This document shows positions 3,811 to 20,000 of a stretch of 20,000 bases of DNA, in pieces (positions within the stretch are counted from its first letter, which is position 1; each line of letters starts with the position of its first letter). A program made the translations under genes and the position numbers. A model generated the notes under the pieces. The model saw only the letters and a list, made by a program, of their open reading frames with translations. It ran no database searches and was not told where the DNA came from. The DNA lies in IMG/VR virus record IMGVR_UViG_3300030390_001081, positions 47,151 through 67,150 of that record. One strand, written 5' to 3'. The stretch is from an uncultured virus (IMG/VR IMGVR_UViG_3300030390_001081). Lineage: Duplodnaviria > Heunggongvirae > Uroviricota > Caudoviricetes.

Positions 3811-6800
3811 ATGGGATTTGATTTAAATGAGTTCTTTCAATCACAGGTTAAAGGAGCTAGAGGTGGTTATCAACAAGCACAAGATGATTTAAAACAAGAT
3901 GTAGATAATTATGATGTAGGTGGGCCTATGGATGCTAATCCTGGAGAAGATTTTTCTATATCGCAAGGAGATATATCTGCATCTGCATTACAGCAAAGAA
4001 CATCATTTAGAACTACGGGTAGAGGTTCTGGATTTCAAACTCCAGAAATGATTATACCTGAAGATCCTAATGTGCAAGGAGCAATAGATCAAGATAGATT
4101 TTTAAAACAATCTATGACAAGAACTGAAGACATTGCAAGATCTGAAGTTTCTAGATTACAAAGATCACTTATAGCAGGTAGTGGACAAGTAGTAAGTATG
4201 GTAGGGGATATATTTAATTTTCTACATGCAATAACTCCTGATACAGGAGAAACATTTGAACCATTTGAAACAGTAGGAACATTCTTAACAAAGCATGGTG
4301 ATAAAACTATGAATGAGTATAAGAATACTTATATACCAGAAGAATTAGAAACGATAGGTGTAAATGATATGTTCAATCCTACTTTTTGGACAGGTGATGT
4401 AGCTCAACAAGTACCAAATTTTTTATCTATGCTTACTCCTGGTGTACTAGGTACTAAGCTTGCAAGCAAAGGATTATTAAAATATTTACCAAAATATACA
4501 AAAGCATCGAGAGGATTTTTAGATGATACTGTCGGTGTTGTAACAAGAACAAAAGGTGGTCTTGGTAGTTTAACTCCTATTATTAATGTAGGAATAGAGG
4601 GTGCAGATGATTTTATATTATCTAGATCAGGTAAGGCTTTATCTGCTTTTCTTGGTGGTGGTATTGGTACAACTATGGTAGATGGAGCTACAATAGCAGG
4701 ACAAACATATAGACAGGGATTACAAGTAGGTTTAACAGAAGAGGAGTCTTCTGTAGCTGCCGCTAATGTATTTGGAAATAATTTTGCATGGGCAGGTATA
4801 AATGGTATATCATGGGGATTAACTTTTGGTGGAGTTAGATTAGCTCCTGTCAGAGGATTAGTCAATAAAATGCCTAAGAATACTTTTGGTAAAACAGTAT
4901 CTGGTATATTGCAAAGTAGAATTACCTCTGGAATAAGTAAAGCAGGATTAGAAGCTGTAGAGGAATCATTCCAAGAAACTTATCAAGATTGGGTGCAAAA
5001 AAGACAATTAGCAAAAGCTCAGGGAATACCATTTGAATATGATGGAGATTATTTATACCTTAGTTCAGGTTATGCTGAATATTATAATAGTCCTGAAAAC
5101 AATAGAACAAAATATGTAGCTGGTGCTACAGGTATATTAGGTGGAGGATTTTCATCTATTATAAATGACACTGCAAAGCAACAGCTTGCTATGGACAGAC
5201 AACGTGAGATTTTAGAACAAAATCTTGATTTGTTAAATGATAATAGTAGAACATCTAGATTAGCAGTTGTAGACAACGTAGTAAAACATTCTGTAGAATC
5301 TAGAGAAACAGGAGAGTTAACAGCTTATTTACAGCAACAATTAGACAAGGGTATTATAGATCAAAAATTATTTGATTTTTATACTAACGTAATAAACTCA
5401 TATGAAGAGTTATATAATAGAATACCAGAATATATAGAAGAAACAGAAGGGTTTGGTAAAGAACAGTATTTTTCTAATTTAACTTTAGTAGAAAGAAATA
5501 AGAATGCATTAAAATATAGTGAGGAAGAATTACAATCTTGGAAAGATGCTAATAAAGATTCAGAAGGAACTAAAGGTTACAATGAAGTATTAGCACAAAA
5601 AGAAGGTGAGCTTGCAGAACTTGCAAATGAACTTGAACAAGCTAGCGCAAAAGCTCGTGAAATAAACTTAGGTATAGAGCAAGAAATACTTACTGAAAAT
5701 AGAAAGTTTAAAAAAGGTGTTTCTGTTACACCTGAAGGTAAGTTAACAAGAGGTGAAGGTAAAAAAGTTGGAGGAAAATTTGCACCTGAAAGTAAGTTAG
5801 ATCAAGAACAAAAAGAAGATATACTTACAAAAGAAGCAGAAAAAAAACAAGCAAAAGAAGAGTCGAAAGAAAGCGAAAAAACAGAAGAACAAACAGAGGG
5901 TGAACCATCTGTAGTTAAAAGAGTAGTAGACAAAGCAGGAGATATAGCTCGTAAAACAGGTGAAAGATTAGGAATAGTAAGTGCAAAAGAAGAAACACCT
6001 GAAACAACTCCTACAGAAGAAACAACACCAGAAGTAGCTGCAGAATCAAAAACAGAAACAAAACAACAAGCTTCAGAAGATGTGTCTGTATCTAAAGTTG
6101 CATCTAAAATTAAAACAGGAACTTTATCTCCAGAGAATGTTAGAACACAAGATAAAACTGATGTTGACGCTGCAGTTAAAAGTGTTGCGCAAAAATTAGA
6201 TAGTGGTGTTACTGCAGATAAACTTACTGAAAATGAAAAAACTATTGCAATTGAATTTGCACAAGAGGTAAGACAAGCGCGTAAAAAAAAAGTAGAAACT
6301 AAGACTAAGAGTAAGACAAAAACTGAAACTAGTCAAAAGTCTAAACCTAAACCAAGAGATAAAAAAGGTAAAAAGTCTAATTATAAATCAGCTAATCAAG
6401 CTGTAACTAAAAACCTCAACTTTAGATTAAGAAATGCTAGAATAGCAAACACAATGTTTATACAAGATAAACTTGGAATTGCTGTTGGTGTAATAGACTC
6501 TTCATACAATCACTTTGGTACTACTCCCGCATACGAAGTAGCTGGAGCAATATTTGTAGATCCAAATAAACTATATCAAGAATTATTTGTACACGAATAT
6601 ACAGGACACATTTATTTTAGAGCAAATCAAGATAGTCCACTTATAAAAAAGTTTATACAGGAATATGCTAATTCTAACGAATATGCTGCTATGAAAGGTA
6701 GGTATCCAGAATTAGAAATGTTTACCTATAATGGACAAGAACTTACATTGTCAGAAATATCACAAGACTTACACGAAAGGTCTTTTAATAAAGATGATAA

Positions 6801-9800
6801 TTTTTATTATGCAGAGTTAGAAGCAGACTTACAAGCTCTTATAGATATAGTTGATGAAATAGCAGCTAATGAAACTGCAGGTGCTTATGAAGGTACAGGA
6901 GTTACAAAACAAATAGAAGACTATGCTGAGTTAAAAAGAATGTTACAAGAAAATAAACTTGTAAAAGAACTTAAGCCACAGCAACAGATGGCACTAATGG
7001 AAGAAGGTTGGGCTACATATATTTCTGATCCTGACAATCCTAATACAAGAGAAGACGCTAGAAAAATATTTGATGGATTAATGGAGAATCCAGAAGAAAA
7101 CAAAAAACGTAAATCAAGAATAAAACGTTTTTGGAATATTGTAAGTAAACAAGGTAAGTCTATAGAAAAAGAAGCTACTACAACACTACAAAGTAAAGAA
7201 GGATTAGCTGGACTATCTTTAGATGAAATTAAAAGCAGACTTACTTCTGATATGCTAAGAATGACTCCAGAAGAGGTAAGACAAGGTAGAGCTACTAGTT
7301 CTAGAAGAATGAACTACAAGCCTAATAGAAGTCTTACAGATACATCTGTATTTGAAAATGAGTTAGCAACTAATGTATATAACGAGCTTGTTAACAATCC
7401 TAAACTAATAAAAGAATTTGCAGAAAGATATAAAGACAACCCATCTGATTTATTACAAGACGAAGAGTTTATAAATGTAATAGTAGAAAGTATGACTCAG
7501 TTGTCATATCAATATGGTGTGCATAACAGGTTTGCTGAAGCTATAATATACAATACTAAAAAATTATCTAAACTTAATAGAGAGGTAATTGATTTACAAA
7601 AGAAAATAGATTCTGCTACTAATTTAGATAGTAGAAGAGAGTTTGTAAAACAAGCTAAATTTAAAAGAGCACAATTAGTAAAAGCAGCAGCTAAAATACA
7701 ACCTAAAGATATAGATACAACAACTATACAAATGGGTGACAATAGTATGAGTGTAAGAAACTTTGCACAAGCTATTGCATTTAAAGTAATGAATCGTAGA
7801 GGTATTAACTCTGCATTTAATAAATTTAATGCTCAAGTATCTAAACTTTCTAAAGATGCTACTTTATCAAAAATAGAAGAAACTTTTAATAATGCATTAA
7901 AAAAAGAAGGTTTATCTGATTTACAAATAGAAGGACTTGCTAGCGAACAATTGCGTGTAGTTATAGACGAATATGAAAAAGTATTTGGTTTAAACTATCA
8001 TGGATTAGATGCTATTACTGATATAAATGAATTAGTAGACTATAGTGATAATATACTTAATATCTACAATAAAGATAAAGATGAGTTGTTATCTGGTTTA
8101 TCATCATTGATGATGGACTTTACTAGAGTTTATATGCAAACTGAAGAGGCGCAGTCTAAAAAGAAAACATCTAGACAACCTTATGTAAAACAAAAAGCTT
8201 TGGGTGCTATGGCAATCATATTGCAAACAGCACAACAACACAGGGGTGACTTGCAAGGATTTATAGGATCTATAAGGTCTAATAAGAATAGCTCTGTAAG
8301 AGCATTTTTAAAGTATTTAGAAGATAGATTACAAGTAGAAGGTGTAAAGTATAAGAAACCACTACAGTTACTTAGAACTAAAGAGAGATCTGGAGTTATG
8401 AAAAGTTTAGCAGATCACTTGTTAACATCTGTGTGGATTAACTTTAGCAACAAAACTAACGAACAAATATTTAATACAGTACAAAGAGGTAATGATTCTA
8501 CACAAACAAATGATTTAGATTTATTTAATGAAGAAACAACTGCAAGTGAAGAAAGAGCTTTAGTTGCAAGAGTAATAAAAGAAGGTGGCTTTATATTTAA
8601 CCAGGGTAAAGATGGAGCAAGAAGACGTAGAGATGTAGCGTTTACACAAAAAATGATAGACGCTATACGTGGACTTAATGAAGATAAGTCAACTACATTT
8701 CAAGATGCCGAGTCTATACTTATGGAAATGTTTGATGTATATGGAGGTAATTATTTCTTTTGGAATACATTAGAGCAAACTGGTGTAGTAGATGGTAAAA
8801 ACAGAATATCATTAAATGATTGGTTTAAAAAGAATGAAAAGAAAATAATTAAAGCTTCTAAAGATCCTAAGATAGCTGTAGATGTCTTTGCTCCTGTATT
8901 GCAACAAGCAGCATTAAACAGTAGAGTATTCTATTACTTTACTATGATAAAGAATGCAGAGGGTAATCCATCAAATACTATGAATAGTCGTAGTTTTATT
9001 ATTAATCAAAATGAAAGACTAAATGAGTTTTTTACAAGAAAGGATAATGAAACAGATCAAGAATATAATGATAGAGTTTTTGATAGAGCGAAAGCATTAA
9101 GAGATATTTATGGCGATAATGCATATCTACCTTTTGAATTAAAAACAATAGATGGTGTATTTACCGTACAGCCAAAACAAAATGTATTAAAATTTAGAGG
9201 CGGTCTTATATCTCAGTTAAACAATAAAGGTTTGAATTATGTTAGACTTACACCACAAGAACTTATGGTTAGTGAGATGACTGACTTTATAAGCGCTTTA
9301 GGTAGACGTAGACAAACAGACTCTGATGGTAATATAGTTGATACTACATATATGCAGCAAGTAGGTGTATTTGCTGAAAAAACAAGAATGTACTATGTAG
9401 AAACAAAGTTGTTAAAAGACACACAAATTAAAGAAGAAATAGATTTAAGACTGTCTGAATACGTAGGACAAACATATCAAGATGGTAAATTAATATTACC
9501 ATTTATAAAATCTAAAGGTAAAAAAGCTGTTATAGATGAAGTATATGTAAATAAACAAGTAAGGTTATTAGGTAATCATATTAATAATAATTTACATTTA
9601 TATAAAGACAATGTAGATTTTCAAAATTTATTTGATGGCAATAAATTAAATGCACAAGGTAAAAAAGCTTTGCGTACATACATTCTTAATTATGGAATAA
9701 ATAGATTCCAGGCACAAAGAATGTTTATTGGGGATCATAAACAATTTAAAAACGAAACTGATTATGTTAAGCGTAGTGCAGGTGCTATAGCTAGACAAAT

Positions 9801-12800
9801 GCCCACTGATATAAATCAAAAGGTAGATCTACTAATATTGAAGGATCAAGAATTAGATGGAGATAGCGAAATGGATGCGCAAGGATATATGTTGCAAGAA
9901 GATGCAGACATAGTAGGAAACCAGTATGGTTTAAACTTTATGCGTAATGATTTTGAAACTGCTAGACATTTTAAATATGTTTATTACGGACAAGATTTAA
10001 GAGAGGATGCATTAGTTAATAATGTATTTGGTCCACATTCTGCAATGTACGCTAAAGCAAATGTAATGTCTATTACTAAAGATATGGAAAATAAAAATCC
10101 ATACTTAGCTAGCGTAGCAGAATTATTACGTGCTCGTAAAAAAGATTTAACTAATAGAAAAGAAAACTATCAAGTAGTAGCTTATCAAGAATCAGCTATT
10201 AAAACAGCTCCTTTTAAGTTAGAAGACTACACTATTAACTTAGACAATACAACTAGTTCTGGTGTTAATGCATTATATGAAATGCAGATAAAAGAACAAT
10301 ACGATAACTTGTACTCTAACGAAGAAGGCTATGTTGGATTAGATGGACAAAACTTTGGTGTACAACTTATATTAGATAAAGAAAAGTTTACATCACCAAT
10401 GGCCGCACAGTCATACTCACAACACCTTACTAATACTACGCCTGAAACTGAATTACTTGCACAAGGTGCACACCGTGCAATTGCAAGAGCTATGCAGTAT
10501 CAGTTGGAGGAATCAGGAGTAAAGAAGTATTATAATGTAGATGAATATACAGAGTCAAAACAAATATCTCTTAACAAGTCTTTGTTAGACAAGATAAGTT
10601 CTAACTGGGCTGGTAATCCTACTGCAAACTTAAGTGAATATGCAAGTCCATTTTTTCCTAAGTTAAATGTATCACGTAACTCTATATTAAATAAATTAAT
10701 TGTTGAGGTAGGTACAAAGGTAACAACACCTGGTACAATTGCATTTCAAGTAACTCCATATGGATATAACCTAAAATCATTTACAACTCTTGGAGCATTA
10801 AAAGAATCTGCTGCAGATCAAAATGAAAGAAATACAATAGACAAGTTAATTAATAAGTATGATAGTAACCTTACAGTTTCTGAAGTTATACTACCATATA
10901 ACATGCAAAAAGATTATAATGTAGGTGATATTATATTGGGTAGTAGAATACCTTCACACGCAAAATCTACGCAACCTGTATTAGTTGTAAAAGACTTTTT
11001 TGATAGAGATGCTGGTAGTATAATTGCTGTAGGTACTAAAGTATCTAAAGCTATGGGATCTGACCTTGATGGTGATGCTATTTTTGTAAATGGTAGGTAT
11101 GTTAAAAAGAATTTAAAATTATCTGAAACTGCATACAATAGAGCTTTTGATAATATAGTAAGTTTAAACGGACATCCTGCACATCAAGCAGAAGCATCTG
11201 AATCTATTGAATTTGAGGATACGGCAAAAGATGCTTTAAAGTTTTCTGAAGAAACATTAGGAAGAAAGCAAGATAGTTTTGCAGAAGAGTCTAGTCAAAT
11301 GATGCCTATAGGTATGTTAAATGCATTTAATGAAAATGTACCTGCTGGTGGTATGATTGGTATAGCAGCTACTATGCAAAGAGATTTAAATTATTTTGCA
11401 CATCACAATGCTGAGTTAGACTTTAGCGTAAGAATAAATGGTGTTGAAAGAAATAAAATAACAGATGATGGAGGTTTAACTTATTTACAAACAGCAAAAG
11501 TTTTAAACATTATACTTGATAATCCTAAGTATCAATATGCAAGAAAGTTAGGGTTTACATATGAAACAATTAAAACTGCAATGCTGTTGTTAAGAATGGG
11601 TTATAGTTTTAATGAGGTAGCTACAATACTTAATAGTCAGGGTGCATTAAAGTATGGTAAGTACGCATCAGAGAGAACTGTTATTAATGTAAATGATATG
11701 TCATACTATACGCCTGGACAAAAGGCTATGGTAGAATACTATGAAAGCGAAAACAATAATAAAGAAATAAATAGCTCTATAGAGTTCTTATCAAGAAAAC
11801 AATCGCCATCATTATATGTTAGACAAAACATTGATCCTCAGTTAAAAGTAGATAAAGGTGGTGTAATTAATCTTGACTTTAGTGATGTACAAAGCAACGA
11901 GTTTAATATGCAAGTAGTTAAGCTGCTTGATAATTTAAATAAAGTTGGTACAGAAGTGTTTAATGCTGGTAGAATTATTGGTGCATATGGTTTAACTATG
12001 CAGAATGGATTTCAAGTAGATAAACTTATATCAGACTTTAATAATGTAGGTTCTAAAGATTCTAGATTTATAGAAGGCCCTATAAATAAATTAAAAGCTG
12101 ATCCTATTATACAGCATAATATTAAAGTTCTTAATAAAATAAAAGAATTAGATCAAGAAATTAATACACAATATAGTACAGAAGCTGTAGCCGTACAAAA
12201 AGAAATAAATAAAATTGTTAGCTCTGACCAGCAAAACATATTTGAAAGTCATCCTATAGCTGTAAGACAATATCAATTATTTAGAATGCAACAAGACCTA
12301 TCTGTCTTACAAGATATGCCATCTATTGATGCATTGTTTGCTCAGATTGAACAAGTTAAACTAGAAAACGATAAACTGCCATATGAATTACAAAACAGAT
12401 TTATTGCTGATGGTATAATTTTAAACCCTGAAACAAAGTCTGTGTCTTTAAATAGTAGATTTGTTGATTCTAATATACCAGAGTCTGATTTATTTGTATT
12501 ACAAAGACACTTTGATTTATTAGATCAAAATAGAGGCATAGGAGCATTTGATGTTGCACCAGGTACACCAAGAATAGAAGTAGAAAGAGTAGAAAATGAA
12601 GATGGTTATATTCCTAAATATGCTGACTTTACTACTGATTTAAGAAAGACATTTATACAAATGGATTTTTTACAAAATGGCTGGATAGGTTCATCTTCTA
12701 CCTCTGTATTGTGGAGTCCTAATACACATGGAGTTGATTTTAAAATAAACCAAGAACTAAATAACCTTATACTTGATAACAAGCGTACAGTTACTAATGA

Positions 12801-15720
12801 AGAAGCTAAAAGTATTGCACTAAACTTTTTAAAAGATTATTCTTTTAATGCTCCTTCTGTTACTATGAGAGAAAGCGATATATCAGAAGATGGAACAGTA
12901 TATGTTATAGCTGGTTTCCCACCGCCTGTTGTAGATAAATTACAAAAAGAAAATACACAACACGTTGTAAAGTCTTGGGATAACACAGATAAAAAATACA
13001 GAACTTTTGAATATGTAGATGGTAAGTATTATTTAATTGGTGAGTCTAAGTTTAATCCTAAAACACAAGAACAGCATAATAGAAATAATAAAACTAAAAC
13101 ATTTAAACAAGTTACTAGAAAAGCAGTTGATAGAACTTTCTTTGCTAAAAGATCTAATAAAGGTAAATACAAAGGTGCTAACGATGTATCTGACACTATA
13201 ACTAATAGAGCTGAACAATCTGGTATACCTACTAAAGCATTATCTAAAGATGCTTACTTTCAAATTAAAGGTTTGTCTTCTCGTAACAGAACTATTTCTG
13301 CTGGTACTGAACAGTATTATAATAAAATGTATGAGAACTATGTAGATCAACATCAAGATTTATATGATACATTGTATTTACCAAATATTAAAACTAACAA
13401 ATACAAAGAAATGTCTGAAGGTGAATTAGTTAGCATTTCTGTTGACCTAATTAATTTTGATAAAGTATTATATAATCAATATATAGAATACATTGGCGTA
13501 GAGCTTACTGAAAGAATGGAGAAAGAGCAGATAGCAAACATTGCTAAAGTAGCTAACAAAAATAATATATCTCTTGTAGGTAAAGATTTGGGCGCTTGGG
13601 AATCTTGGCTTATATCTAATAATTTAAAACAAACTAATCCTGAAGTACAGAACATTATAAGAAAACTTCAAAATGATTACATGAAGTTTGTAAAAGATTA
13701 TAGACGTGAAGCTATGATAATATCTAAATTAGAAAAACAGATTAAAGATAATAGACTATCTAATCTTACTAACTCACAAATGGTTGGACTGTTTCTAAAA
13801 GGAAAGCTTAATGATTATATATATAAAAATTTATATAAAACAAAAGTAAACGCAGATGGTAGAGAGTTTATTGTACTTAGATCTGAAGAAGAAATAAAAG
13901 GTTTACCTCAATATGAAATTGAGTTTTATTTTAAGTTTAAAGATATGGTGCAAAAATATAGTCCTGGTATTGATGAATCATCTATACCTTACAAGTCTAT
14001 GTCTGGTATACCTTCATTGGCTAGACACGGTTTATTAGGATTATACAAATCACAAATAGGTAGTACTTCTGATTTAAATAATATAAAAGTATTAGGAGAG
14101 TTGCCAGATGGAACTACAGAGATAAGAACATTTGCTGAGTTTAAAACATTGTATGAAGCTAAAACAAAAGATTCTTTATTGAATAAAGCTAAAAATATTG
14201 TAAGATTAGAAAAAGTTCGTAAGCGTGCTGTAGCAGCATCTAAAAGAGGAATGAATGATGATAAGACTCCTATAATTTTAAATAAAGCAGAGAGAGCTAC
14301 AATGACTGATAGCGATATATTCTACAATATGATTGACAATAAAAATGTTAGTGTGTCTGAACTTGGTTCTAAAGACCTGGGCGATATACTTAAATCATAT
14401 GTTCATAGTAATATGTTTAAACATGGATCACAAAGATTTAGACAAGATTATTTAAATACAGTTAATGTTATTACAGATAAAAATGGTAAAAAGTATTTTG
14501 AAGAAACTTATCAACAATGGGCAGTTAGAAACGAGAAAGATGATTTCTTAGGGATGCAGTCTTACTTACCATTAATTGATGGAGCTATAGCACTAAACAA
14601 GCTTAAGGGTAATGACAACATGGTTGATTACTTACAGGAAGTTTGGAAAGATAATATTATAGGTGGTAAAAAACAAAAAGCATTTAAAGGTCCATTTGAT
14701 TGGGCTGTAAATAAATTAGTAGATTTAACTACACTATCATATATTGGTTTAGATTCTTCTGTTGTTATTGGTAATGCTGCCATGGGTAAGTATACATCTT
14801 TACGTGCTAAAGGTGGTAAAGAATTTATAAGTGGTGAGAAAAGATTTTGGCAAGGTTTTCTTGGTGGACAAGAATCTGTAAAAGATAAACTTACTCGTGC
14901 TAAAAAGTTAGAGTTTGGTTCTACAAATAAAACCTCAGCTATGTTGAATGAATTATTTAAGTTTGAATACTATCAGTATGAGGATATATCTGCAGTACAC
15001 AAACAAAATCCTTTGTTTAGACTTGCTTTATGGCCAATGGAACAATCTGAAAAATGGATACAAGGTGTAATGTTCTTTGGACAAATGTCACAAAAACAAT
15101 GGAACTCGTATGATGCTGATGCTGATGGTAATTTATTAGTAAAAGCTGTAGATGGTAAGTTTTATAAATACAGTGATTTAGAATTAAGTGATGTTAGTGA
15201 AGATGCATTAAGTATAGATCGTATTAATCAGATAGTATTTGATGTAAAAAAACAACAAGGATTTGGTTACTCGCCATTAGATCAACGTAGATTATCTATG
15301 TACTCCTGGGGTAGAGCTTTAGGACAATTTAAAAAATATTTCTTTTCATTAAGTAGAGAAAGATTTGGATCTGAAAATATAGACATGTATGGTAATGCGG
15401 ACGTAGGTACTTATCGTGCAGCATTTGAATATACTAAAGATATGTATCAAGGTAAAAAAGATTTTAATGATTTTAAAAAGTTACCTAAATACAAAAAAGA
15501 TGCAATAATAAGATATGTAAGAGGTGTGGCTGTTACGTTTGCAGCAATGTTAGCATATGGATTATCATCTGAAGATGATGATAGTATTATATCAAATCAG
15601 ATTAATAAAACTGCACACGCAAGAATACAAGAACAAAATATTTTCTTTAATCCAGAAAGATTAAAATTTATGGCTACACCGCCAGCAGTGAATTTTGTTT
15701 CGGATAGATTAGGATATTAA
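3811..15720 (+). CDS. Giant virion-packaged protein: two-barrel (double-psi beta-barrel) DNA-dependent RNA polymerase fused to a zincin-like metalloprotease and ejection-type domains (3969 aa)
   Basis: Catalytic DxDGD as GSDLDGD (D2418-D2422, nt 11062-11076), with the RxP motif GSRIPSH 39 aa upstream (R2379, nt 10945). Motifs resembling those I recall from crAss-like vRNAPs: FIGDHKQFK..DYVKR (9724-9774), DAQGY (9874-9888), IGIAA (11356-11370), ILDNPK (11512-11529). HEYTGH at 6592-6609 with EEGWA at 7000-7014. Confidence 0.88.
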   Translation: MGFDLNEFFQSQVKGARGGYQQAQDDLKQDVDNYDVGGPMDANPGEDFSISQGDISASALQQRTSFRTTGRGSGFQTPEMIIPEDPNVQGAIDQDRFLKQSMTRTEDIARSEVSRLQRSLIAGSGQVVSMVGDIFNFLHAITPDTGETFEPFETVGTFLTKHGDKTMNEYKNTYIPEELETIGVNDMFNPTFWTGDVAQQVPNFLSMLTPGVLGTKLASKGLLKYLPKYTKASRGFLDDTVGVVTRTKGGLGSLTPIINVGIEGADDFILSRSGKALSAFLGGGIGTTMVDGATIAGQTYRQGLQVGLTEEESSVAAANVFGNNFAWAGINGISWGLTFGGVRLAPVRGLVNKMPKNTFGKTVSGILQSRITSGISKAGLEAVEESFQETYQDWVQKRQLAKAQGIPFEYDGDYLYLSSGYAEYYNSPENNRTKYVAGATGILGGGFSSIINDTAKQQLAMDRQREILEQNLDLLNDNSRTSRLAVVDNVVKHSVESRETGELTAYLQQQLDKGIIDQKLFDFYTNVINSYEELYNRIPEYIEETEGFGKEQYFSNLTLVERNKNALKYSEEELQSWKDANKDSEGTKGYNEVLAQKEGELAELANELEQASAKAREINLGIEQEILTENRKFKKGVSVTPEGKLTRGEGKKVGGKFAPESKLDQEQKEDILTKEAEKKQAKEESKESEKTEEQTEGEPSVVKRVVDKAGDIARKTGERLGIVSAKEETPETTPTEETTPEVAAESKTETKQQASEDVSVSKVASKIKTGTLSPENVRTQDKTDVDAAVKSVAQKLDSGVTADKLTENEKTIAIEFAQEVRQARKKKVETKTKSKTKTETSQKSKPKPRDKKGKKSNYKSANQAVTKNLNFRLRNARIANTMFIQDKLGIAVGVIDSSYNHFGTTPAYEVAGAIFVDPNKLYQELFVHEYTGHIYFRANQDSPLIKKFIQEYANSNEYAAMKGRYPELEMFTYNGQELTLSEISQDLHERSFNKDDNFYYAELEADLQALIDIVDEIAANETAGAYEGTGVTKQIEDYAELKRMLQENKLVKELKPQQQMALMEEGWATYISDPDNPNTREDARKIFDGLMENPEENKKRKSRIKRFWNIVSKQGKSIEKEATTTLQSKEGLAGLSLDEIKSRLTSDMLRMTPEEVRQGRATSSRRMNYKPNRSLTDTSVFENELATNVYNELVNNPKLIKEFAERYKDNPSDLLQDEEFINVIVESMTQLSYQYGVHNRFAEAIIYNTKKLSKLNREVIDLQKKIDSATNLDSRREFVKQAKFKRAQLVKAAAKIQPKDIDTTTIQMGDNSMSVRNFAQAIAFKVMNRRGINSAFNKFNAQVSKLSKDATLSKIEETFNNALKKEGLSDLQIEGLASEQLRVVIDEYEKVFGLNYHGLDAITDINELVDYSDNILNIYNKDKDELLSGLSSLMMDFTRVYMQTEEAQSKKKTSRQPYVKQKALGAMAIILQTAQQHRGDLQGFIGSIRSNKNSSVRAFLKYLEDRLQVEGVKYKKPLQLLRTKERSGVMKSLADHLLTSVWINFSNKTNEQIFNTVQRGNDSTQTNDLDLFNEETTASEERALVARVIKEGGFIFNQGKDGARRRRDVAFTQKMIDAIRGLNEDKSTTFQDAESILMEMFDVYGGNYFFWNTLEQTGVVDGKNRISLNDWFKKNEKKIIKASKDPKIAVDVFAPVLQQAALNSRVFYYFTMIKNAEGNPSNTMNSRSFIINQNERLNEFFTRKDNETDQEYNDRVFDRAKALRDIYGDNAYLPFELKTIDGVFTVQPKQNVLKFRGGLISQLNNKGLNYVRLTPQELMVSEMTDFISALGRRRQTDSDGNIVDTTYMQQVGVFAEKTRMYYVETKLLKDTQIKEEIDLRLSEYVGQTYQDGKLILPFIKSKGKKAVIDEVYVNKQVRLLGNHINNNLHLYKDNVDFQNLFDGNKLNAQGKKALRTYILNYGINRFQAQRMFIGDHKQFKNETDYVKRSAGAIARQMPTDINQKVDLLILKDQELDGDSEMDAQGYMLQEDADIVGNQYGLNFMRNDFETARHFKYVYYGQDLREDALVNNVFGPHSAMYAKANVMSITKDMENKNPYLASVAELLRARKKDLTNRKENYQVVAYQESAIKTAPFKLEDYTINLDNTTSSGVNALYEMQIKEQYDNLYSNEEGYVGLDGQNFGVQLILDKEKFTSPMAAQSYSQHLTNTTPETELLAQGAHRAIARAMQYQLEESGVKKYYNVDEYTESKQISLNKSLLDKISSNWAGNPTANLSEYASPFFPKLNVSRNSILNKLIVEVGTKVTTPGTIAFQVTPYGYNLKSFTTLGALKESAADQNERNTIDKLINKYDSNLTVSEVILPYNMQKDYNVGDIILGSRIPSHAKSTQPVLVVKDFFDRDAGSIIAVGTKVSKAMGSDLDGDAIFVNGRYVKKNLKLSETAYNRAFDNIVSLNGHPAHQAEASESIEFEDTAKDALKFSEETLGRKQDSFAEESSQMMPIGMLNAFNENVPAGGMIGIAATMQRDLNYFAHHNAELDFSVRINGVERNKITDDGGLTYLQTAKVLNIILDNPKYQYARKLGFTYETIKTAMLLLRMGYSFNEVATILNSQGALKYGKYASERTVINVNDMSYYTPGQKAMVEYYESENNNKEINSSIEFLSRKQSPSLYVRQNIDPQLKVDKGGVINLDFSDVQSNEFNMQVVKLLDNLNKVGTEVFNAGRIIGAYGLTMQNGFQVDKLISDFNNVGSKDSRFIEGPINKLKADPIIQHNIKVLNKIKELDQEINTQYSTEAVAVQKEINKIVSSDQQNIFESHPIAVRQYQLFRMQQDLSVLQDMPSIDALFAQIEQVKLENDKLPYELQNRFIADGIILNPETKSVSLNSRFVDSNIPESDLFVLQRHFDLLDQNRGIGAFDVAPGTPRIEVERVENEDGYIPKYADFTTDLRKTFIQMDFLQNGWIGSSSTSVLWSPNTHGVDFKINQELNNLILDNKRTVTNEEAKSIALNFLKDYSFNAPSVTMRESDISEDGTVYVIAGFPPPVVDKLQKENTQHVVKSWDNTDKKYRTFEYVDGKYYLIGESKFNPKTQEQHNRNNKTKTFKQVTRKAVDRTFFAKRSNKGKYKGANDVSDTITNRAEQSGIPTKALSKDAYFQIKGLSSRNRTISAGTEQYYNKMYENYVDQHQDLYDTLYLPNIKTNKYKEMSEGELVSISVDLINFDKVLYNQYIEYIGVELTERMEKEQIANIAKVANKNNISLVGKDLGAWESWLISNNLKQTNPEVQNIIRKLQNDYMKFVKDYRREAMIISKLEKQIKDNRLSNLTNSQMVGLFLKGKLNDYIYKNLYKTKVNADGREFIVLRSEEEIKGLPQYEIEFYFKFKDMVQKYSPGIDESSIPYKSMSGIPSLARHGLLGLYKSQIGSTSDLNNIKVLGELPDGTTEIRTFAEFKTLYEAKTKDSLLNKAKNIVRLEKVRKRAVAASKRGMNDDKTPIILNKAERATMTDSDIFYNMIDNKNVSVSELGSKDLGDILKSYVHSNMFKHGSQRFRQDYLNTVNVITDKNGKKYFEETYQQWAVRNEKDDFLGMQSYLPLIDGAIALNKLKGNDNMVDYLQEVWKDNIIGGKKQKAFKGPFDWAVNKLVDLTTLSYIGLDSSVVIGNAAMGKYTSLRAKGGKEFISGEKRFWQGFLGGQESVKDKLTRAKKLEFGSTNKTSAMLNELFKFEYYQYEDISAVHKQNPLFRLALWPMEQSEKWIQGVMFFGQMSQKQWNSYDADADGNLLVKAVDGKFYKYSDLELSDVSEDALSIDRINQIVFDVKKQQGFGYSPLDQRRLSMYSWGRALGQFKKYFFSLSRERFGSENIDMYGNADVGTYRAAFEYTKDMYQGKKDFNDFKKLPKYKKDAIIRYVRGVAVTFAAMLAYGLSSEDDDSIISNQINKTAHARIQEQNIFFNPERLKFMATPPAVNFVSDRLGY
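6592..7014 (+). other. Zincin-like metallopeptidase motif region within the giant protein (HExxGH ... EExxA)
   Basis: AGAIFVDPNK-LYQELFVHEYTGHIYF gives a beta-strand followed by a helix carrying HExxxH (H928); a downstream helix LMEEGWA (E1064) could supply the third Zn ligand. This layout is typical of metallopeptidase domains in phage polyvalent/ejection proteins. Confidence 0.7.
9721..11529 (+). other. RNA polymerase catalytic core (both double-psi beta-barrels plus bridge/trigger-like elements) within the giant protein
   Basis: Ordered motifs GD....K...D..KR, DAQG, HFKYVYYG, YAKAN, KVTTPG, RIP, DLDGD, IGIAA, ILDNPK. Boundaries are approximate. Confidence 0.8.
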
Positions 15721-15746: not shown

Positions 15747-16112
15747 ATGGCAAATACAAATGACGTAAATGGTGCAGCACTAGGTAAATATGGTGTAGCT
15801 TATATGGATACAACCGATTTATTTACACCACCAAATGGTATGGTGATTGTAGCTATACAGTTTCTTGCACAAAATACTTTAAATACTTTAACGTCTTTTG
15901 ATACTGATTCTGGTACTAGAAGGTATGCGAATACTGCTAATGCAGCACATGCAGCAGAGGATAATTTAGAAGGAAAAAATGGTGCGCAGTTAGACAATAC
16001 TGCTATATTTCCAGTAGGAACAATTATTTATGGTAGATGGAGTACTGTAAAATTACAAACTGCAGATTCTAATGGAGGTATATTAATTTATTTATCACCA
16101 AAAGGTAGTTAG
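15747..16112 (+). CDS. Small beta-rich hypothetical protein, possibly virion-associated; paralog of 16544..16912
   Basis: 121 aa, A-rich leader, TAG stop. Shares MAN..D...A.LG.YG, M...AI..LA and FP.G..I.GRW..V.L blocks with 16544..16912. Confidence 0.75.
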   Translation: MANTNDVNGAALGKYGVAYMDTTDLFTPPNGMVIVAIQFLAQNTLNTLTSFDTDSGTRRYANTANAAHAAEDNLEGKNGAQLDNTAIFPVGTIIYGRWSTVKLQTADSNGGILIYLSPKGS

Positions 16113-16543: not shown

Positions 16544-16912
16544 ATGGCAAATAATACAGATATATATAATGCAACGCTTGGTCAATATGGATCATCGTTT
16601 ATTACAGGTGACGGTGGAACTGTCGATTTAAATGGTACTTCATCAACAATGTTTGTAATAGCAATTACAATGTTAGCTGATACAACATTTCAGAACTTAC
16701 AAACTTATAAAGGTGAGATAAAATCTATAAGTACAGTTACAGCTGAAAATGATCATGATGCAGAATTTGGTGCAGCATCAAATGCTACTGATATTACTAC
16801 ATCACACACTTTTCCAAAAGGTGTAACAATATTTGGAAGATGGGATTTTGTAGAACTTAATAGTGGAACTTGTGTTTGTTATTTTGCACCACAACCATTT
16901 AATGTGTCGTAA
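16544..16912 (+). CDS. Small beta-rich hypothetical protein; paralog of 15747..16112
   Basis: 122 aa; same conserved blocks as 15747..16112; its stop overlaps the next start (TAATG). Confidence 0.75.
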   Translation: MANNTDIYNATLGQYGSSFITGDGGTVDLNGTSSTMFVIAITMLADTTFQNLQTYKGEIKSISTVTAENDHDAEFGAASNATDITTSHTFPKGVTIFGRWDFVELNSGTCVCYFAPQPFNVS

Positions 16913-17955
16913 TGATAAAAACAATACTATATATTTGTTTAGCATTTTTTTGTGCATTATCAAGTATAACTGTTGATGCGCAAATAAAAAACCTATATAA
17001 ATTTTCTACATTTTATATTGCTGCAAATGGAGGTACTTCTTTGTCAGATCGTAACATATATAATGTACAAGACATACTTACTACTGCTACAGAAGAAACT
17101 CCTTATGATTATTCTTTAACTGCAGGCATTAGAAAAATTAAAAGATTTCAATACGAACCTACCAGTCCTTTTAAGGATGGTACAGAAACTACATATAGTG
17201 ATGCAGCTACTATAGGTTTATCTCCGTTTGAATTTTTATTTGAAATAGACTACAGAAGACAAGAAGGTATAGAATACATAAATCAAAATCATTTTTTACG
17301 TTATGTAAAACCAATATGGTTAGCTAAAGCAGAATACATTCTTGATGGTTTTGCTGATGTTGAATATTATGAAACAACACAAAGATTAAGATTAAGAGGT
17401 AATAAAAAACTATCATTTAATTTAGGAGCTATACAAAGAATATCTGAACCCTATGGATATGATCCACTAGAAGAATGGATATTATCTAATGGTAACTTAC
17501 ATTATACATACTTAGCAATACAAGAAGGATATACTATAGATGTATATGATAATCAATATATAGATCCACAAGGTAACATTGTAGCAACAAGTTCAGCTGT
17601 GTGGGATGAGGTAGTTATACCACAAGTTTTATCAGATTATGTAGAAAGTAAAAGAGATGAACTTACAAACCAATGGGTACACTCTATTGTTTTGGGTTTT
17701 GATTATTATACATACAAAAAAAATGCATGGTTACATGTATGGGGTAATTTTATACCTTATCATTACAATGATGGAGGTGAATACTCTTATCATAACTTTA
17801 ATGATGGAGAACAATGGTACGACTATTCTGGTGGTTTAATATTTGGTTTGAAAATTAACAAACATTTAGGTACTTTTGTAGAAGGAAAATATCATAAGTA
17901 TTGGAATAGAGAATGGTATGATTTTAAATTTGGAATAAATTATATAATATTTTAA
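16912..17955 (+). CDS. Putative outer-membrane beta-barrel protein with Sec signal peptide
   Basis: N-terminal signal MIKTILYICLAFFCALSSITVDA|Q; about 12 amphipathic aromatic-rich strands (e.g. FEFLFEIDYRR, WLHVWGNF, LGTFVEGKYHKYW); last strand WYDFKFGINYIIF ends in Phe, matching the BAM beta-signal. Confidence 0.75.
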   Translation: MIKTILYICLAFFCALSSITVDAQIKNLYKFSTFYIAANGGTSLSDRNIYNVQDILTTATEETPYDYSLTAGIRKIKRFQYEPTSPFKDGTETTYSDAATIGLSPFEFLFEIDYRRQEGIEYINQNHFLRYVKPIWLAKAEYILDGFADVEYYETTQRLRLRGNKKLSFNLGAIQRISEPYGYDPLEEWILSNGNLHYTYLAIQEGYTIDVYDNQYIDPQGNIVATSSAVWDEVVIPQVLSDYVESKRDELTNQWVHSIVLGFDYYTYKKNAWLHVWGNFIPYHYNDGGEYSYHNFNDGEQWYDYSGGLIFGLKINKHLGTFVEGKYHKYWNREWYDFKFGINYIIF

Positions 17956-17956
17956 A

Positions 17957-18232
17957 ATGGCAAAAGAACTTAACGAAGAAACAGGGTTCAATATAAGTGT
18001 AAAAACATTAATAGGCATAGGTTTTGCTATGGCAACTATAATTAGTATGTGGTTTGTTTTACAAGCTGATATAGCAGAAGCTAAAGAACTTCCTAAGCCA
18101 GAAATTTCTAAGATGGAATTTAATATGAAAGATGTTAATATACGTCAATCTATTAAGAACACAGAGAAAAATGTGGAAAAGTTAGAAGAGCGAATGATTC
18201 GCATGGAGGACAAAATTGATGCATTAAGATAA
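17957..18232 (+). CDS. Single-pass membrane protein with C-terminal coiled coil
   Basis: 91 aa; hydrophobic LIGIGFAMATIISMWFVL, then a Pro linker (ELPKPE) and heptad-like IKNTEKNVEKLEERMIRMEDKIDALR; stop overlaps the next ATG. Confidence 0.75.
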   Translation: MAKELNEETGFNISVKTLIGIGFAMATIISMWFVLQADIAEAKELPKPEISKMEFNMKDVNIRQSIKNTEKNVEKLEERMIRMEDKIDALR

Positions 18233-18585
18233 TGAAAAAGATAGCAGAATGGAAGATATTTGGAATGTACTTGTTAGTATTATTTTTATTGTTAGCCTCA
18301 CATACTGCTTTCTCTCAGGTAAAAGTGATACACTTTAATGCTGATTTTAATTCAGCTAATGATGTAGCTTGGTTCGTGAAATTAAATGAATGTGATAGAC
18401 AAACGCTTTTGATAGAGCAAAATGATAATCAAATTAAATACGAAATAGCTATTGTACCAACAATAATAGTGTTTGATGACGGTAAAGAAGTAAAAAGATT
18501 TCAAGCAGACATAAGTTTTAAAATGGCTGCCACAAGAAAAGAAGTACAAGAATATATTGACGAATTAATAATAAGCAAATTTTAA
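18232..18585 (+). CDS. Exported thioredoxin-fold protein lacking CxxC
   Basis: Signal peptide ending TAFS|Q. VIHFNADFNSAN occupies the position of Trx 'vdF.A.WCxxC'. YEIAIVPTIIVFDDGKEVKRFQ matches the Trx cis-Pro 'y.i..vPT...f..G.ev.r..' signature. The mature chain has only one Cys. Confidence 0.75.
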   Translation: MKKIAEWKIFGMYLLVLFLLLASHTAFSQVKVIHFNADFNSANDVAWFVKLNECDRQTLLIEQNDNQIKYEIAIVPTIIVFDDGKEVKRFQADISFKMAATRKEVQEYIDELIISKF

Positions 18586-18586
18586 T

Positions 18587-19318
18587 ATGTTAGTTTTAAG
18601 TAATTGTATATCGCTTCCATCTATAGATTTTGTTGAAGATTTTCAACTTACTAGTGTAACAGGTTTAAAAGCTTGGTATAAATTTAATACTGGTATAACA
18701 TTAGATACAAACTCTGGAACAGAAACTGTAGTATTACAATGGGCTGATAGTAGTGGTAATACTGATAAAGATATGGATTTAACATTAGCTACTAGTTTAA
18801 CAGAAAATGTAGCAAATTACAGTTCTTCAACTGGAGGAATAGAATTTAGAACTGGTGATAAATCAATATTAAATACAGATAGCGACCAACTTAATTTAGG
18901 TGCTTTTACAATATTTGGAGTTATTGATATTGTAGAAAGTGGAGCAGCAAATGAAGCTATATTAGGTAGACTAGGTAATGATGAATTAAGATTTTATAGA
19001 GGTTCATCTGCTTCAGGTTTTAGAGCAAGAATAAATGGCGCAAATAAAGATATAAATTTAGACAGTAATTTACCTAATGACAAATTATTGTTTACGGTAA
19101 TTAGAGCAAGTGATGGTACTATTTCTGTACGTATAAATGGAACAACACAAAGCAACACCTCTTCATTAGCAATTACTAATTTATTTGATTTTTTAAGAAT
19201 TGGTAATGCTTCAACAGATAGTGATGTGTATGAAATTGCAATTTATGATAACGAAGTAAGTGCTGATAATATTACTCTTATTGAAAATAATATTAACATA
19301 AGAAACAATATAAATTAA
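18587..19318 (+). CDS. LamG/concanavalin A-like jelly-roll domain protein (possible glycan-binding or virion fibre-associated)
   Basis: 243 aa with LKAWYKF...VLQWADSSGN near the N-terminus, ISVRINGT internally, and YEIAIYDNEVSADNITLIEN at the C-terminus, the usual LamG-like pattern in phage proteins. No signal peptide. Confidence 0.7.
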   Translation: MLVLSNCISLPSIDFVEDFQLTSVTGLKAWYKFNTGITLDTNSGTETVVLQWADSSGNTDKDMDLTLATSLTENVANYSSSTGGIEFRTGDKSILNTDSDQLNLGAFTIFGVIDIVESGAANEAILGRLGNDELRFYRGSSASGFRARINGANKDINLDSNLPNDKLLFTVIRASDGTISVRINGTTQSNTSSLAITNLFDFLRIGNASTDSDVYEIAIYDNEVSADNITLIENNINIRNNIN

Positions 19319-19319
19319 A

Positions 19320-20000
19320 GTGAATAATTTTACAAAATTTTTATACGCATTTATAATGCTATTTGTTTTTACGCTGTCTACAGCGTTTTCGCAATGTCCT
19401 AACGGAACATATGTAAACATAGTAATTAATCCTGATCAATACCCAGAAGAAACTTCATGGGCTATTATATCATTGCTAGAAGACACCATTGTTTCAGGTG
19501 GACCTTACGAAGACATAGTAGATTATCAGCCGCAAGTTATTCAGGTATGTATACCTAATGGAGAGTACTTGTTTAATATATCTGATTTATATGGTGACGG
19601 TGTTGCAGGAAGTCTATGGGGTGGACAAGATGGGTCTTACTACGTAGTTCACTGTGGTGATACTTTAGTTCAACCAGACTCCGCTAACTTTGGCTTTAGC
19701 GCTTTTCATGGTTTTGCATTAGAAGATTGTGCTCCACCACCACCTGTATTTGGTTGCATGAACAATAACTACTTAGAATTTTTACCTATAGCTACTGTAG
19801 ATACTGGTATGTGTTTTACAGAAAAAATATTTGGTTGTACTGATGTAGAATCTTTTAACTACGATAGCATAGCTAATACAGATATACTAACAGACAGCTG
19901 TACACACACGCTAGAATTAACAGATTTAGCTGGTAATGGTTGGGCTGGTTCATATCTACAAGTTTATCAAGGTTATAATTTTATAGGTGAGTTTACTTTA
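19320..20000 (+). CDS. Secreted Cys-rich repeat protein, 3'-truncated (absent from the ORF track)
   Basis: GTG at 19320, 1 nt after the upstream stop; open for 227 codons to the window end: MNNFTKFLYAFIMLFVFTLSTAFS|QCPNGTYVNIVINPDQYPEETSW...ISDLYGDG...CAPPPPVFGCMNNNYLEFLPIATVDTGMC..IFGCTDVESFNYDSIANTD...SC...TDLAGNGW. Resembles Flavobacteriia secreted surface proteins with GCTD-type repeats. Confidence 0.85.
   Translation, partial: MNNFTKFLYAFIMLFVFTLSTAFSQCPNGTYVNIVINPDQYPEETSWAIISLLEDTIVSGGPYEDIVDYQPQVIQVCIPNGEYLFNISDLYGDGVAGSLWGGQDGSYYVVHCGDTLVQPDSANFGFSAFHGFALEDCAPPPPVFGCMNNNYLEFLPIATVDTGMCFTEKIFGCTDVESFNYDSIANTDILTDSCTHTLELTDLAGNGWAGSYLQVYQGYNFIGEFTL
19746..19901 (+). repeat. Two protein-level GC[MT]x-type Cys repeats
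   Basis: VFGCMNNNYLEFLPIATVDTGMC (19746-19814) and IFGCTDVESFNYDSIANTDILTDSC (19827-19901) fit the GCTD..a.NY...A..ddgsC consensus. Confidence 0.7.

What the first reader, a model, noticed from the sequence alone, without database searches (positions are those of the whole stretch)
16912..20000. Phage-encoded host-envelope module: OM beta-barrel, membrane coiled coil, redox-dead thioredoxin, LamG protein and Cys-rich secreted protein
Seen: five genes joined by overlaps or 1-nt gaps (TAATG, TAAAATG, TAATG, TAATATG, TAAAGTG). Three have Sec signal peptides and one a single TM helix, so the predicted products span inner membrane, periplasm, outer membrane and possibly the cell surface. None looks like endolysin, holin or a known tail part. 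Inference: a possibly undescribed trans-envelope system that a lytic-type phage installs in its host, for example for superinfection exclusion/receptor masking, surface display of the Cys-rich protein, nutrient uptake, or an unconventional outer-membrane disruption step. The LamG gene lacks a signal peptide and may be an inserted virion gene.
Basis: partly seen in the sequence, partly recalled or inferred. Interest (0 to 1): 0.8.

Follow-up and report, generated by a model that had tools for sequence, protein, structure and literature searches.

The report
Phage envelope trio plus secreted cargo
An uncultured marine phage carries three linked genes of unknown function, for an inner-membrane protein, a periplasmic protein and an outer-membrane barrel, that often lie beside cell-bursting genes in related phages and may be an undescribed way of opening or timing the opening of the host's outer membrane; the cysteine-rich gene beside them is a protein tagged for the host's own secretion system.

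Summary
The five genes are real, but they are not one five-part unit.

Core: a phage-specific trio of a 12-stranded outer-membrane barrel, a single-pass inner-membrane coiled-coil protein and an exported CxxC-less thioredoxin fold. It recurs in crAss-like, long-tailed and large phages. Anchored on the membrane protein, 43 of 43 loci had the barrel, 41 the thioredoxin fold and none the Cys-rich gene.

Cys-rich gene: cut by the contig end. Run contigs carry it across the junction toward a type IX secretion (T9SS) sorting domain, so it is host-secreted cargo added in one branch. LamG is a variable insert.

Best reading (0.35): a spanin substitute. Endolysin or holin-like genes lie within 2 kb in 30 of 43 cargo-less loci, but only 9 of 70 in this phage's branch. 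No lipoprotein spanin was found. Rivals are lysis-timing signalling (a distant branch fuses a c-di-GMP-type motif to the membrane protein) and surface display.

No function is shown. I found no paper on the trio; phage T9SS cargo has precedent. This scan noted the same cassette before on other DNA (34 windows, 30 genomes).

The parts
16912..17955 (+). Outer-membrane beta-barrel, 347 aa. Signal peptide ends before Q24; 12 strands; conserved 30-residue periplasmic loop (mature 53-82); 75-residue aromatic-rich extracellular insert (mature 156-230); C-terminal Phe. Core member.
   Evidence: AF2 model pLDDT 82. Foldseek best NanC E 9e-5. VIA best EstA Z 10.9, rmsd 6.5, 201 aligned, tied with CymA and OmpG. 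No Pfam, PHROG or NCBIfam family. Conservation by segment. Sidedness inferred by counting strands back from the C-terminus.
17957..18232 (+). Single-pass inner-membrane protein, 91 aa. TM about 17-35, then a Pro linker, a conserved (R/K)MEFxMKD motif and a coiled coil. Inferred N-in/C-out (i-spanin or T4-holin layout). Core member.
   Evidence: Hydrophobicity scan, alignment A3, weak hits to unknown-function PHROGs 1009, 1863 and 12220. Distant homologues carry an N-terminal MshEN-type motif, which implies a cytoplasmic N-terminus.
18232..18585 (+). Exported thioredoxin-fold protein, 117 aa. Signal peptide ends before Q29; FNxxN stands in place of WCxxC; the cis-Pro-type VPT motif is kept; ends in Phe. 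Core member, absent in one distant branch.
   Evidence: PF00085 E 0.012 and TIGR01068 E 0.001, both under the cut-off. (W/F)NxxN in 63 of 64. CxxC in 0 of 151, terminal F/Y in 150 of 151. Directly follows the TM gene in 78 of 83 loci holding both.
18587..19318 (+). LamG-like protein, 243 aa, no signal peptide. Variable insert, probably a virion accessory; not part of the module.
   Evidence: PF13385 E 8e-5, under the cut-off. Absent from the second copy at the contig start. Present in 16 of 70 loci of this branch and 0 of 43 in the cargo-less set. Virion role is inference.
19320..20000 (+). 5' part (227 aa) of a Cys-rich T9SS cargo protein: signal peptide, DxYGDG beta-sandwich domain, GC(T/M)D repeats. 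Continues outside the window at G000:C1:3074-4225 (about 610 aa in all) to a type A sorting domain. Accessory member of this branch.
   Evidence: The contig end overlaps C1 about 2999-3073. Run contigs with the window's alleles cross the junction. TIGR04183 27.4 bits (cut-off 23) and PF18962 29.1 (cut-off 27). Domain 1 fold is a generic beta-sandwich.

Best explanation
The barrel, TM protein and thioredoxin-fold protein form a late-made bridge across the host envelope that does the outer-membrane step of lysis in phages without a lipoprotein spanin. The TM protein anchors in the inner membrane with its coil in the periplasm (i-spanin role). The barrel is inserted in the outer membrane by the host BAM machine and offers its conserved periplasmic loop as the anchor (o-spanin role). 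The redox-dead thioredoxin fold is the adaptor between them. After the endolysin removes the wall, the linked membranes are pulled together. The Cys-rich protein is a separate add-on, secreted by the host T9SS as a non-catalytic stalked surface protein; LamG is a passenger.

Shown: genes, export signals, barrel fold, loss of CxxC, co-occurrence, neighbourhood, sorting domain. Inferred: topology, late expression. Not shown: any contact between the proteins, or any role in lysis.
For: (1) The trio moves as a unit between unrelated phages: crAss-like, long-tailed with tape measure (L141) and a 158-kb virus (L143).
(2) In cargo-less loci an endolysin or holin-like gene lies within 500 bp in 20 of 43 and within 2 kb in 30 of 43, often as TM-Trx-barrel-M15 peptidase-holin. 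Neighbouring endolysins are of unrelated kinds: M15 peptidase, phage lysozyme, amidase, and DUF5675 (its lytic role is recalled).
(3) The TM protein has the layout given for Rz: class II membrane protein with periplasmic coils (PMC6139136, passage). It is the only such protein among the hydrophobic ORFs of G000, apart from its second copy.
(4) No convincing lipoprotein spanin pair in G000 or in 11 further near-complete genomes. The same scan finds lambda Rz1 and Bor. DUF6549, the TM-coil gene after the endolysin of B40-8, was in 0 of 26 genomes from these loci and rang in B40-8.
(5) PMC6139136 section 15 names an OMP acting as o-spanin as an untested possibility.
(6) Where the thioredoxin fold is missing, the stretch after the TM helix is about twice as long: 108-124 residues in 15 sequences, against 56-72 in 125.
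Against: (1) In this phage's own branch lysis genes are within 500 bp in only 2 of 70 loci and within 2 kb in 9 of 70. In G000 the holin-like gene is about 3.9 kb past the Trx gene across the junction.
(2) Lack of a lipoprotein spanin is not specific: phi14:2 lacks the trio and also gave no o-spanin-like candidate.
(3) The barrel keeps charged strand residues (R51, K52, E84, R93, R107, K116, R135, R153, E301) and a conserved extracellular domain, which a plain anchor would not need.
(4) The MshEN-type motif in one branch points to signalling.
(5) The periplasmic part of the TM protein (median 59 residues) is at the low end of the spanin range, 62-300 for both parts together.
(6) The long-coil, no-Trx contrast is one lineage, and L120 has both a longer coil and Trx.
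(7) Loci are related, so the counts are not independent events.
Confidence: 0.35

Rival explanations
1. Lysis-timing signal chain. The TM protein is a single-pass holin or holin regulator like T4 T, and the exported thioredoxin fold is its antiholin-like partner like T4 RI. The barrel senses something outside (sibling virions, neighbouring cells) through its extracellular domain and passes it on through its periplasmic loop. In one branch c-di-GMP feeds in from the cytoplasm.
For: T4 RI is a periplasmic protein with a cleavable signal peptide that binds the periplasmic domain of holin T (PMC8385771, title and passages). The published relaxed MshEN motif (PMC5013675) matches 38 of 39 long TM proteins and 0 of 3558 other ORFs. 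A long TM protein has a weak hit to a holin PHROG (E 2e-4). In G407, G415 and G416 the endolysin candidate is 0.5-3.5 kb from the trio, while the other holin-like gene is 24 kb or more away. phi14:2 has a TM-coil-PAS gene just before its endolysin.
Against: A separate holin-like gene exists in many of these genomes (family hit weak, E 0.03). PF05157 was not hit at E 0.05. The linker is 11 residues, not 5, and the second motif is complete in 5 of 39. The window's TM protein has no such domain. No homology to T or RI was seen.
Confidence: 0.22
2. Surface display or masking. The trio helps export, fold or hold the Cys-rich cargo, or remodels the outer membrane, to exclude superinfection, shield progeny from adsorbing to the dying host, or make infected cells sticky.
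For: In this branch the cargo lies within 4 kb of the barrel in 65 of 67 loci. 30 of 33 sampled long tails pass the T9SS type A cut-off. Cargo domains occur in 44 of 400 cellular genomes, so it resembles host surface proteins. A shared CxxPKxCC leader is found on 25 of 250 barrels and 3 of 119 cargos. Precedent for phage T9SS cargo: PMC7468147 and PMC6949934.
Against: The trio occurs without cargo in 43 of 43 and the barrel-TM pair in 18 of 18 distant loci. The thioredoxin fold cannot do thiol chemistry (CxxC in 0 of 151). The genes follow the virion genes without a gap large enough for their own promoter, and promoter-like sites are at chance level (28 found against a mean of 32.4); late expression suits superinfection exclusion poorly (inference).
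Confidence: 0.2
3. The barrel is a gated uptake channel for an anionic nutrient (NanC/KdgM-like), with the other two proteins as gate or binding partner.
For: The best Foldseek match is NanC (E 9e-5, TM 0.36/0.51, rmsd 9.1). Conserved Arg/Lys residues lie on the polar strand faces. Phage porins exist in the viral structure library.
Against: The fold matches are generic and tied among unrelated barrels. No cellular homologue was found in 400 genomes, whereas a captured host nutrient gene should have one. It does not explain the lysis-gene neighbourhood.
Confidence: 0.08
4. No joint function: the genes are virion parts or unrelated late genes that share a neighbourhood.
For: LamG behaves this way. 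GC(T/M)D repeats also occur in about 1500-aa proteins without signal peptide or sorting domain in related phages. Barrel and TM gene are separated by other genes in some loci, and 5 of 70 loci lack TM and Trx within the fetched flank.
Against: Cleavable export signals and a C-terminal barrel signal do not suit proteins packaged in the cytoplasm (established knowledge). The trio stays together through several gene orders and unrelated phage types.
Confidence: 0.1

Closest known systems
Two-component spanins (lambda Rz/Rz1 type; Kongari et al. 2018, PMC6139136; read: abstract, passages, section 15)
   Same: An N-in/C-out inner-membrane protein with a periplasmic coil, plus an outer-membrane partner encoded alongside, often next to endolysin and holin genes.
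   Different: The outer-membrane partner is a 12-stranded integral barrel, not a small lipoprotein. There is a third, periplasmic thioredoxin-fold protein. No periplasmic cysteine in the window's TM protein. No sequence similarity, no function shown. The paper lists an OMP as o-spanin only as a possibility.
T4 lysis inhibition, holin T with antiholin RI (PMC8385771; read: abstract start and passages)
   Same: A single-pass inner-membrane protein with a periplasmic C-terminal part, plus a small exported periplasmic protein with a cleavable signal peptide.
   Different: No outer-membrane barrel is described for T4 in the passages read. The periplasmic part here is about 59 residues against about 160. 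No homology; holin activity untested.
Phage-encoded T9SS type A cargo: Cryophage (Bellas et al. 2020, PMC7468147) and crAss-BACON cluster 2 contigs (de Jonge et al. 2019, PMC6949934); read: passages only
   Same: A phage gene with a signal peptide and a type A sorting domain, variable between relatives, presumed to use the host T9SS.
   Different: Here the cargo has no detected catalytic domain (DxYGDG beta-sandwiches on Cys-rich repeats), is conserved across a whole phage branch and sits beside the trio. The passages read mention no barrel, TM-coil or thioredoxin partners.
12-stranded outer-membrane barrels (NanC, autotransporter barrels, LpxR, OMPLA, Tsx, FapF) and phage porin morons (lambda Lom, PA-2 Lc; recalled)
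   Same: Overall barrel fold and C-terminal aromatic signal.
   Different: Under 11% identity and rmsd above 4 A. Has a long periplasmic loop and a large extracellular helical insert. Translationally coupled to envelope partners rather than a stand-alone moron.
MshEN c-di-GMP receptor domain (Wang et al. 2016, PMC5013675; read: abstract and passages)
   Same: The 24-residue motif stands at the N-terminus of distant TM homologues.
   Different: Not in the window's protein. 11-residue linker, second motif often imperfect, Pfam model not hit.

Membership tests
Two-component spanin | i-spanin: class II inner-membrane protein with a periplasmic helical coil | tested here: met
   Single hydrophobic helix followed by a coil; orientation inferred from the MshEN-type fusion and flanking charge, not measured.
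Two-component spanin | o-spanin: small outer-membrane lipoprotein in or beside the i-spanin gene | tested here: not met
   The six-frame lipobox scan of G000 gives only a 37-aa ORF elsewhere and the barrel's own leader. Control finds lambda Rz1. Some barrels of relatives have a lipobox-like CxxPKxCC leader (25 of 250).
Two-component spanin | Position in the lysis cassette | tested here: inconclusive
   Within 2 kb of a lysis gene in 30 of 43, 8 of 18 and 9 of 70 loci of the three sets.
Two-component spanin | Required for outer-membrane disruption; complex spans the periplasm | not testable with these tools
   Needs complementation and microscopy.
T9SS type A cargo | N-terminal Sec signal peptide | tested here: met
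   Hydrophobic leader then Gln in 21 of 22; judged by eye, no SignalP.
T9SS type A cargo | C-terminal sorting domain above the curated cut-off | tested here: met
   TIGR04183 27.4 against 23, PF18962 29.1 against 27 on C1:2417-4225. Link to the window's gene through junction-crossing contigs; no listed piece bridges 3379-3529. Among relatives 30 of 33 sampled long tails pass and 0 of 19 short tails hit.
T9SS type A cargo | Secretion depends on the host T9SS | not testable with these tools
   Host unknown; needs expression in T9SS-positive and mutant strains.
Thioredoxin / Dsb oxidoreductase | CxxC active site | tested here: not met
   0 of 151 homologues; (W/F)NxxN in 63 of 64 close ones.
Thioredoxin / Dsb oxidoreductase | Thioredoxin fold | tested here: inconclusive
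   Repeated weak profile hits under the cut-off and Atlas neighbours with 17% PF00085; not folded.
Outer-membrane beta-barrel (general) | Signal peptide, amphipathic antiparallel strands, C-terminal aromatic signal | tested here: met
A named barrel family (NanC/KdgM, PorV, YaiO, autotransporter) | Family profile or close structural match | tested here: inconclusive
   No profile hit in 84 members; structural matches are tied and distant.
T4-type holin/antiholin | Holin activity and antiholin binding | not testable with these tools
   Only the layout is alike; weak holin PHROG hit for a distant homologue.
MshEN (distant homologues only) | Two 24-residue motifs with a 5-residue linker | tested here: inconclusive
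   First motif in 38 of 39, both in 5 of 39, linker 11; PF05157 not hit.
LamG (PF13385) | Profile score above the cut-off | tested here: inconclusive
   23.2 bits against 27.6, E 8e-5.

The most novel reading that the evidence does not exclude
A regulated, three-part, barrel-anchored lysis machine. A phage-made outer-membrane barrel reads the outside, a dead thioredoxin relays, and an inner-membrane coil (c-di-GMP-gated in one branch) decides when the two membranes are joined. It would be the missing outer-membrane step of many spanin-less marine phages. In this branch the infected cell is also coated, through the host T9SS, with a phage-chosen adhesin-like protein.
Probability: 0.2. Interest if true: 0.92.

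Novelty: categorically new. Interest (0 to 1): 0.7.

Why it matters
How phages without spanins cross the outer membrane is an open question: 91 of 677 genomes in PMC6139136 had none, and an OMP acting as o-spanin was raised there but not found. This trio is a concrete, clonable candidate of about 1.7 kb. It is abundant (3557 barrel proteins at 90% clustering, at least 544 viral stretches) but has no match among 50,697 GenBank phage records. Whatever it does, a phage device with parts in the inner membrane, periplasm and outer membrane is not described in the papers I could search. The cargo extends host-T9SS use by phages from isolated cases to a conserved feature of a marine phage branch.

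Tried and rejected
Complex prediction of barrel + thioredoxin fold + TM coil (residues 36-91): no answer, score 0.00 in both runs, partner fold uncertain, controls not run; neither support nor evidence against.

RNA: one metatranscriptome gave nine contigs at 90-99% identity over the TM, Trx and cargo parts of the second copy and almost none over the barrel. They are relatives' sequences, direction unknown, so expression is not shown.

Family searches for the barrel in Pfam, PHROGs and NCBIfam gave nothing. Cargo domain 1: no Foldseek match at E 0.001; best Z 6.7 (CBM60, rmsd 3.8, 94 aligned), tied with PLAT domains, so only a common beta-sandwich.

Promoter and terminator scan at chance level. 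A recalled Bacteroidota promoter pattern matched only inside the barrel gene within the window.

Search for the phi14:2 gp087 family in 25 viral records: none, but no control rang, so uninformative.

My early notes that all cargos end in a type A domain and that L138-L141 lack the thioredoxin gene were wrong: 19 of 85 tails are of a short type, and the gene had been dropped by my overlap filter. In one search seven short TM proteins were listed as Trx-less in error: four were outside the six-frame set and three scored under my threshold; searches show the gene. I left them out of the contrast.

A cellular origin for the three genome-collection hits was rejected: they lie among phage genes.

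Literature searches that found no description of the trio. Subscription papers are missing from the library and no supplements were read, so tables there could mention these genes.


Full report
**Setting.** The window is the last 20 kb of a 67,150-base virus record. It encodes terminase, portal and major head proteins, and terminase, portal and one large virion gene match the crAss-like phage phi14:2 at 26-28% identity. The 3969-aa protein before the cassette has a DLDGD motif; I read it as the virion RNA polymerase from recalled knowledge of crAss-like phages. The five genes follow the virion genes on the same strand with gaps of a few to some tens of bases. Promoter-like sites are at chance level, so late co-transcription is likely but inferred.

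**Observation.** All five ORFs and junctions are as described. Barrel, thioredoxin-like and Cys-rich proteins have hydrophobic leaders followed by Gln, kept in 65 of 84, 55 of 64 and 21 of 22 aligned homologues. This fits the Bacteroidetes Q-rule (PMC5837995 and PMC10653852; search listing and abstract starts only) and points to a Bacteroidota host.

**The truncated gene.** The contig starts with a second copy of the cassette from a related virus, 70-87% identical, lacking LamG, and becoming identical to the contig's end for the last 75 bases or so. Contigs of public runs X1 (possibly the source), X3 (same study) and X4 (another study) carry the window's letters at 2977, 2989, 2990 and 2998. 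They run on to 3379, 3288 and 3222 with 4, 5 and 12 differences. The window's gene therefore most likely continues at C1:3074-4225, about 610 aa in all, and the assembled 602-aa copy is a chimera. No listed piece bridges 3379-3529. The end of that stretch passes the T9SS type A cut-offs. Among 85 distinct complete cargo ends, 66 are of this type and 19 have a shorter tail. Of 33 sampled long tails (every second one) 30 pass TIGR04183; 0 of 19 short tails hit. No catalytic domain was detected. The first domain folds as a generic beta-sandwich, and these domains and repeats occur in 44 of 400 other genomes of the phylum of G001, whose record title names a Bacteroidota group. Phage T9SS cargo is in print: PMC7468147 and PMC6949934 (passages).

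**The barrel.** AlphaFold2 gives pLDDT 82 and twelve long strands. Matches are outer-membrane barrels without a clear best: NanC by Foldseek; EstA, CymA and OmpG tied at Z 10.3-10.9 with rmsd 5.6-6.5; one unnamed viral homologue. Atlas neighbours are viral clusters without a family. Counting strands back from the C-terminus puts a 30-residue loop in the periplasm and a 75-residue aromatic-rich insert outside. Across 28 diverse rows the conserved residues are charged strand positions, that periplasmic loop and parts of the insert. The loop is poorly predicted in the monomer, as a plug or docking site might be (inference).

**Distribution.** 3557 barrel proteins, 277 at 50% clustering and at least 544 viral stretches. 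A pattern scan of 185,579 species genomes gave 3 hits, all among phage genes; that scan sees only close relatives. A profile search found none in 400 further genomes, and the thioredoxin-like profile gave only weak generic hits there. No GenBank phage record of 50,697 matched barrel or TM protein.

**What is the unit?** Counts are for dereplicated loci with enough flank.
- Barrel-anchored, this branch: all four genes within 4 kb in 58 of 67. TM and Trx were somewhere in the locus in 65 of 70 and LamG in 16 of 70, in several orders.
- Anchored on a distant TM protein: barrel 43 of 43, Trx 41, cargo 0, LamG 0.
- Anchored on the long TM type: barrel 18 of 18, Trx 0, cargo 0. The barrels of this type that I looked at lack the N-terminal Gln, so the host may be outside Bacteroidota (inference).
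Barrel and TM are thus the core, Trx is nearly constant, the cargo belongs to one branch and LamG is a passenger. Carriers include crAss-like phages, long-tailed phages and a 158-kb virus.

**Lysis link.** An endolysin or holin-like gene lies within 500 bp of a trio gene in 20 of 43 cargo-less loci and within 2 kb in 30 of 43; 8 of 18 for the long type; but 2 and 9 of 70 in this branch (53 of 70 somewhere in the flank). Endolysins are M15 peptidase, lysozyme or amidase, or DUF5675, whose lytic role I recall rather than tested. G000 has no o-spanin-like lipoprotein. Of 11 further near-complete genomes 5 gave no lipobox candidate and 6 gave mostly short off-frame ORFs; one has a real-looking 118-aa lipoprotein beside Trx that does not look like an o-spanin. 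The scan finds lambda Rz1 and Bor, but phi14:2, which lacks the trio, also shows no o-spanin candidate, so the absence is not specific. PMC6139136 (passages and section 15) reports 91 of 677 phages without spanins and raises an OMP as o-spanin. A review states that crAss-like lysis appears to use spanins and lysins (PMC10136315, passages).

**Bridge and signal hints.** The stretch after the TM helix is 56-72 residues in 125 sequences with Trx and 108-124 in 15 without (seven mislabelled rows left out, see Tried and rejected). This is one lineage, and L120 is an exception. The long type begins with the published relaxed MshEN motif in 38 of 39 sequences, against 0 of 3558 other ORFs. This supports an N-in orientation and suggests c-di-GMP input, though Pfam's model was not hit. 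T4 holin T and its exported antiholin RI give a parallel layout (PMC8385771).

**Verdict.** A real, phage-specific envelope trio with a T9SS cargo added in this branch. The two lysis readings together carry somewhat over half of my weight: spanin substitute 0.35, timing device 0.22. Surface display or exclusion gets 0.2, no joint function 0.1, nutrient channel 0.08. It fails spanin membership (no lipoprotein partner) and thioredoxin membership (no CxxC), and I found no description in the searches listed; supplements were not read.

Before consulting earlier notes I favoured display (45%) over lysis (35%). Those notes (34 windows, 30 genomes) supplied the trio wording and the spanin paper, which I then tested. 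They are not independent support. Not mentioned in the eight summaries shown to me: the junction resolution, the MshEN-type fusion, the length contrast, the second tail type, and the finding that closeness to lysis genes is weak in this phage's own branch.

Noticed in passing
G000:C1:1-3073 (L001): The contig's first 3 kb comes from a related co-occurring virus; the record is a strain mosaic of a probably circular genome of about 64 kb.
   Followed up: yes
L121-L137 and L239-L286, e.g. L123:1212-1856: Distant TM homologues carry an N-terminal MshEN-type c-di-GMP motif and lack the thioredoxin partner; a phage lysozyme often lies two genes upstream.
   Followed up: partly
e.g. L065:7409-7678, L040:7306-7575: 19 of 85 cargo proteins end in a short tail of about 30 residues (ITD-LGR...LLF-IY-DG-V-KK) instead of the type A domain; possibly a second sorting signal that TIGR04183 does not see.
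   Followed up: partly
e.g. L046:7935-8978, L066:4301-4990: A lipobox-like leader followed by CxxPKxCC and then Gln occurs on 25 of 250 barrels and 3 of 119 cargos; lipidation or double processing is possible.
   Followed up: partly
window 18232-18585 and homologues: The thioredoxin-like protein ends in Phe or Tyr in 150 of 151 homologues, like an outer-membrane protein signal; role unknown.
   Followed up: no
L043:877-5271, L050:1233-5603, L085:310-4920 and others: Proteins of about 1200-1600 aa with 38-66 Cys and the same GC(T/M)D repeats but no signal peptide or sorting domain lie upstream in related phages; possibly virion fibres sharing repeats with the secreted cargo.
   Followed up: partly
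L290:19230-20984 (phi14:2 gp087-gp089): The endolysin is flanked by a TM-coil-PAS gene and by a gene with an N-terminal TM helix and C-terminal beta-strands ending in Phe; the latter could be a one-piece beta-anchored spanin.
   Followed up: partly
window 15747-16112 and 16544-16912: Two similar small genes (121 and 122 aa) around a 140-aa gene, between the giant virion gene and the barrel; recurrent in close relatives, no family hit.
   Followed up: no
window 3811-15720: 3969-aa protein with a DLDGD motif, likely the virion RNA polymerase in one piece; no informative Pfam or PHROG hit.
   Followed up: no
L001:4225-4783: Very basic small proteins (DUF6321, DUF5872) lie between cargo and holin-like gene and recur, often in several copies, near the cassette.
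   Followed up: no
L038, L039, L040: Three species-representative genomes under different taxon names hold contigs with this cassette among phage genes, probably mis-binned virus DNA.
   Followed up: partly
L092:10557-13475, L108:11039-11728: Some cargos start with a MAM-like domain (motif recalled) in place of the first DxYGDG domain, which fits an adhesion role.
   Followed up: no
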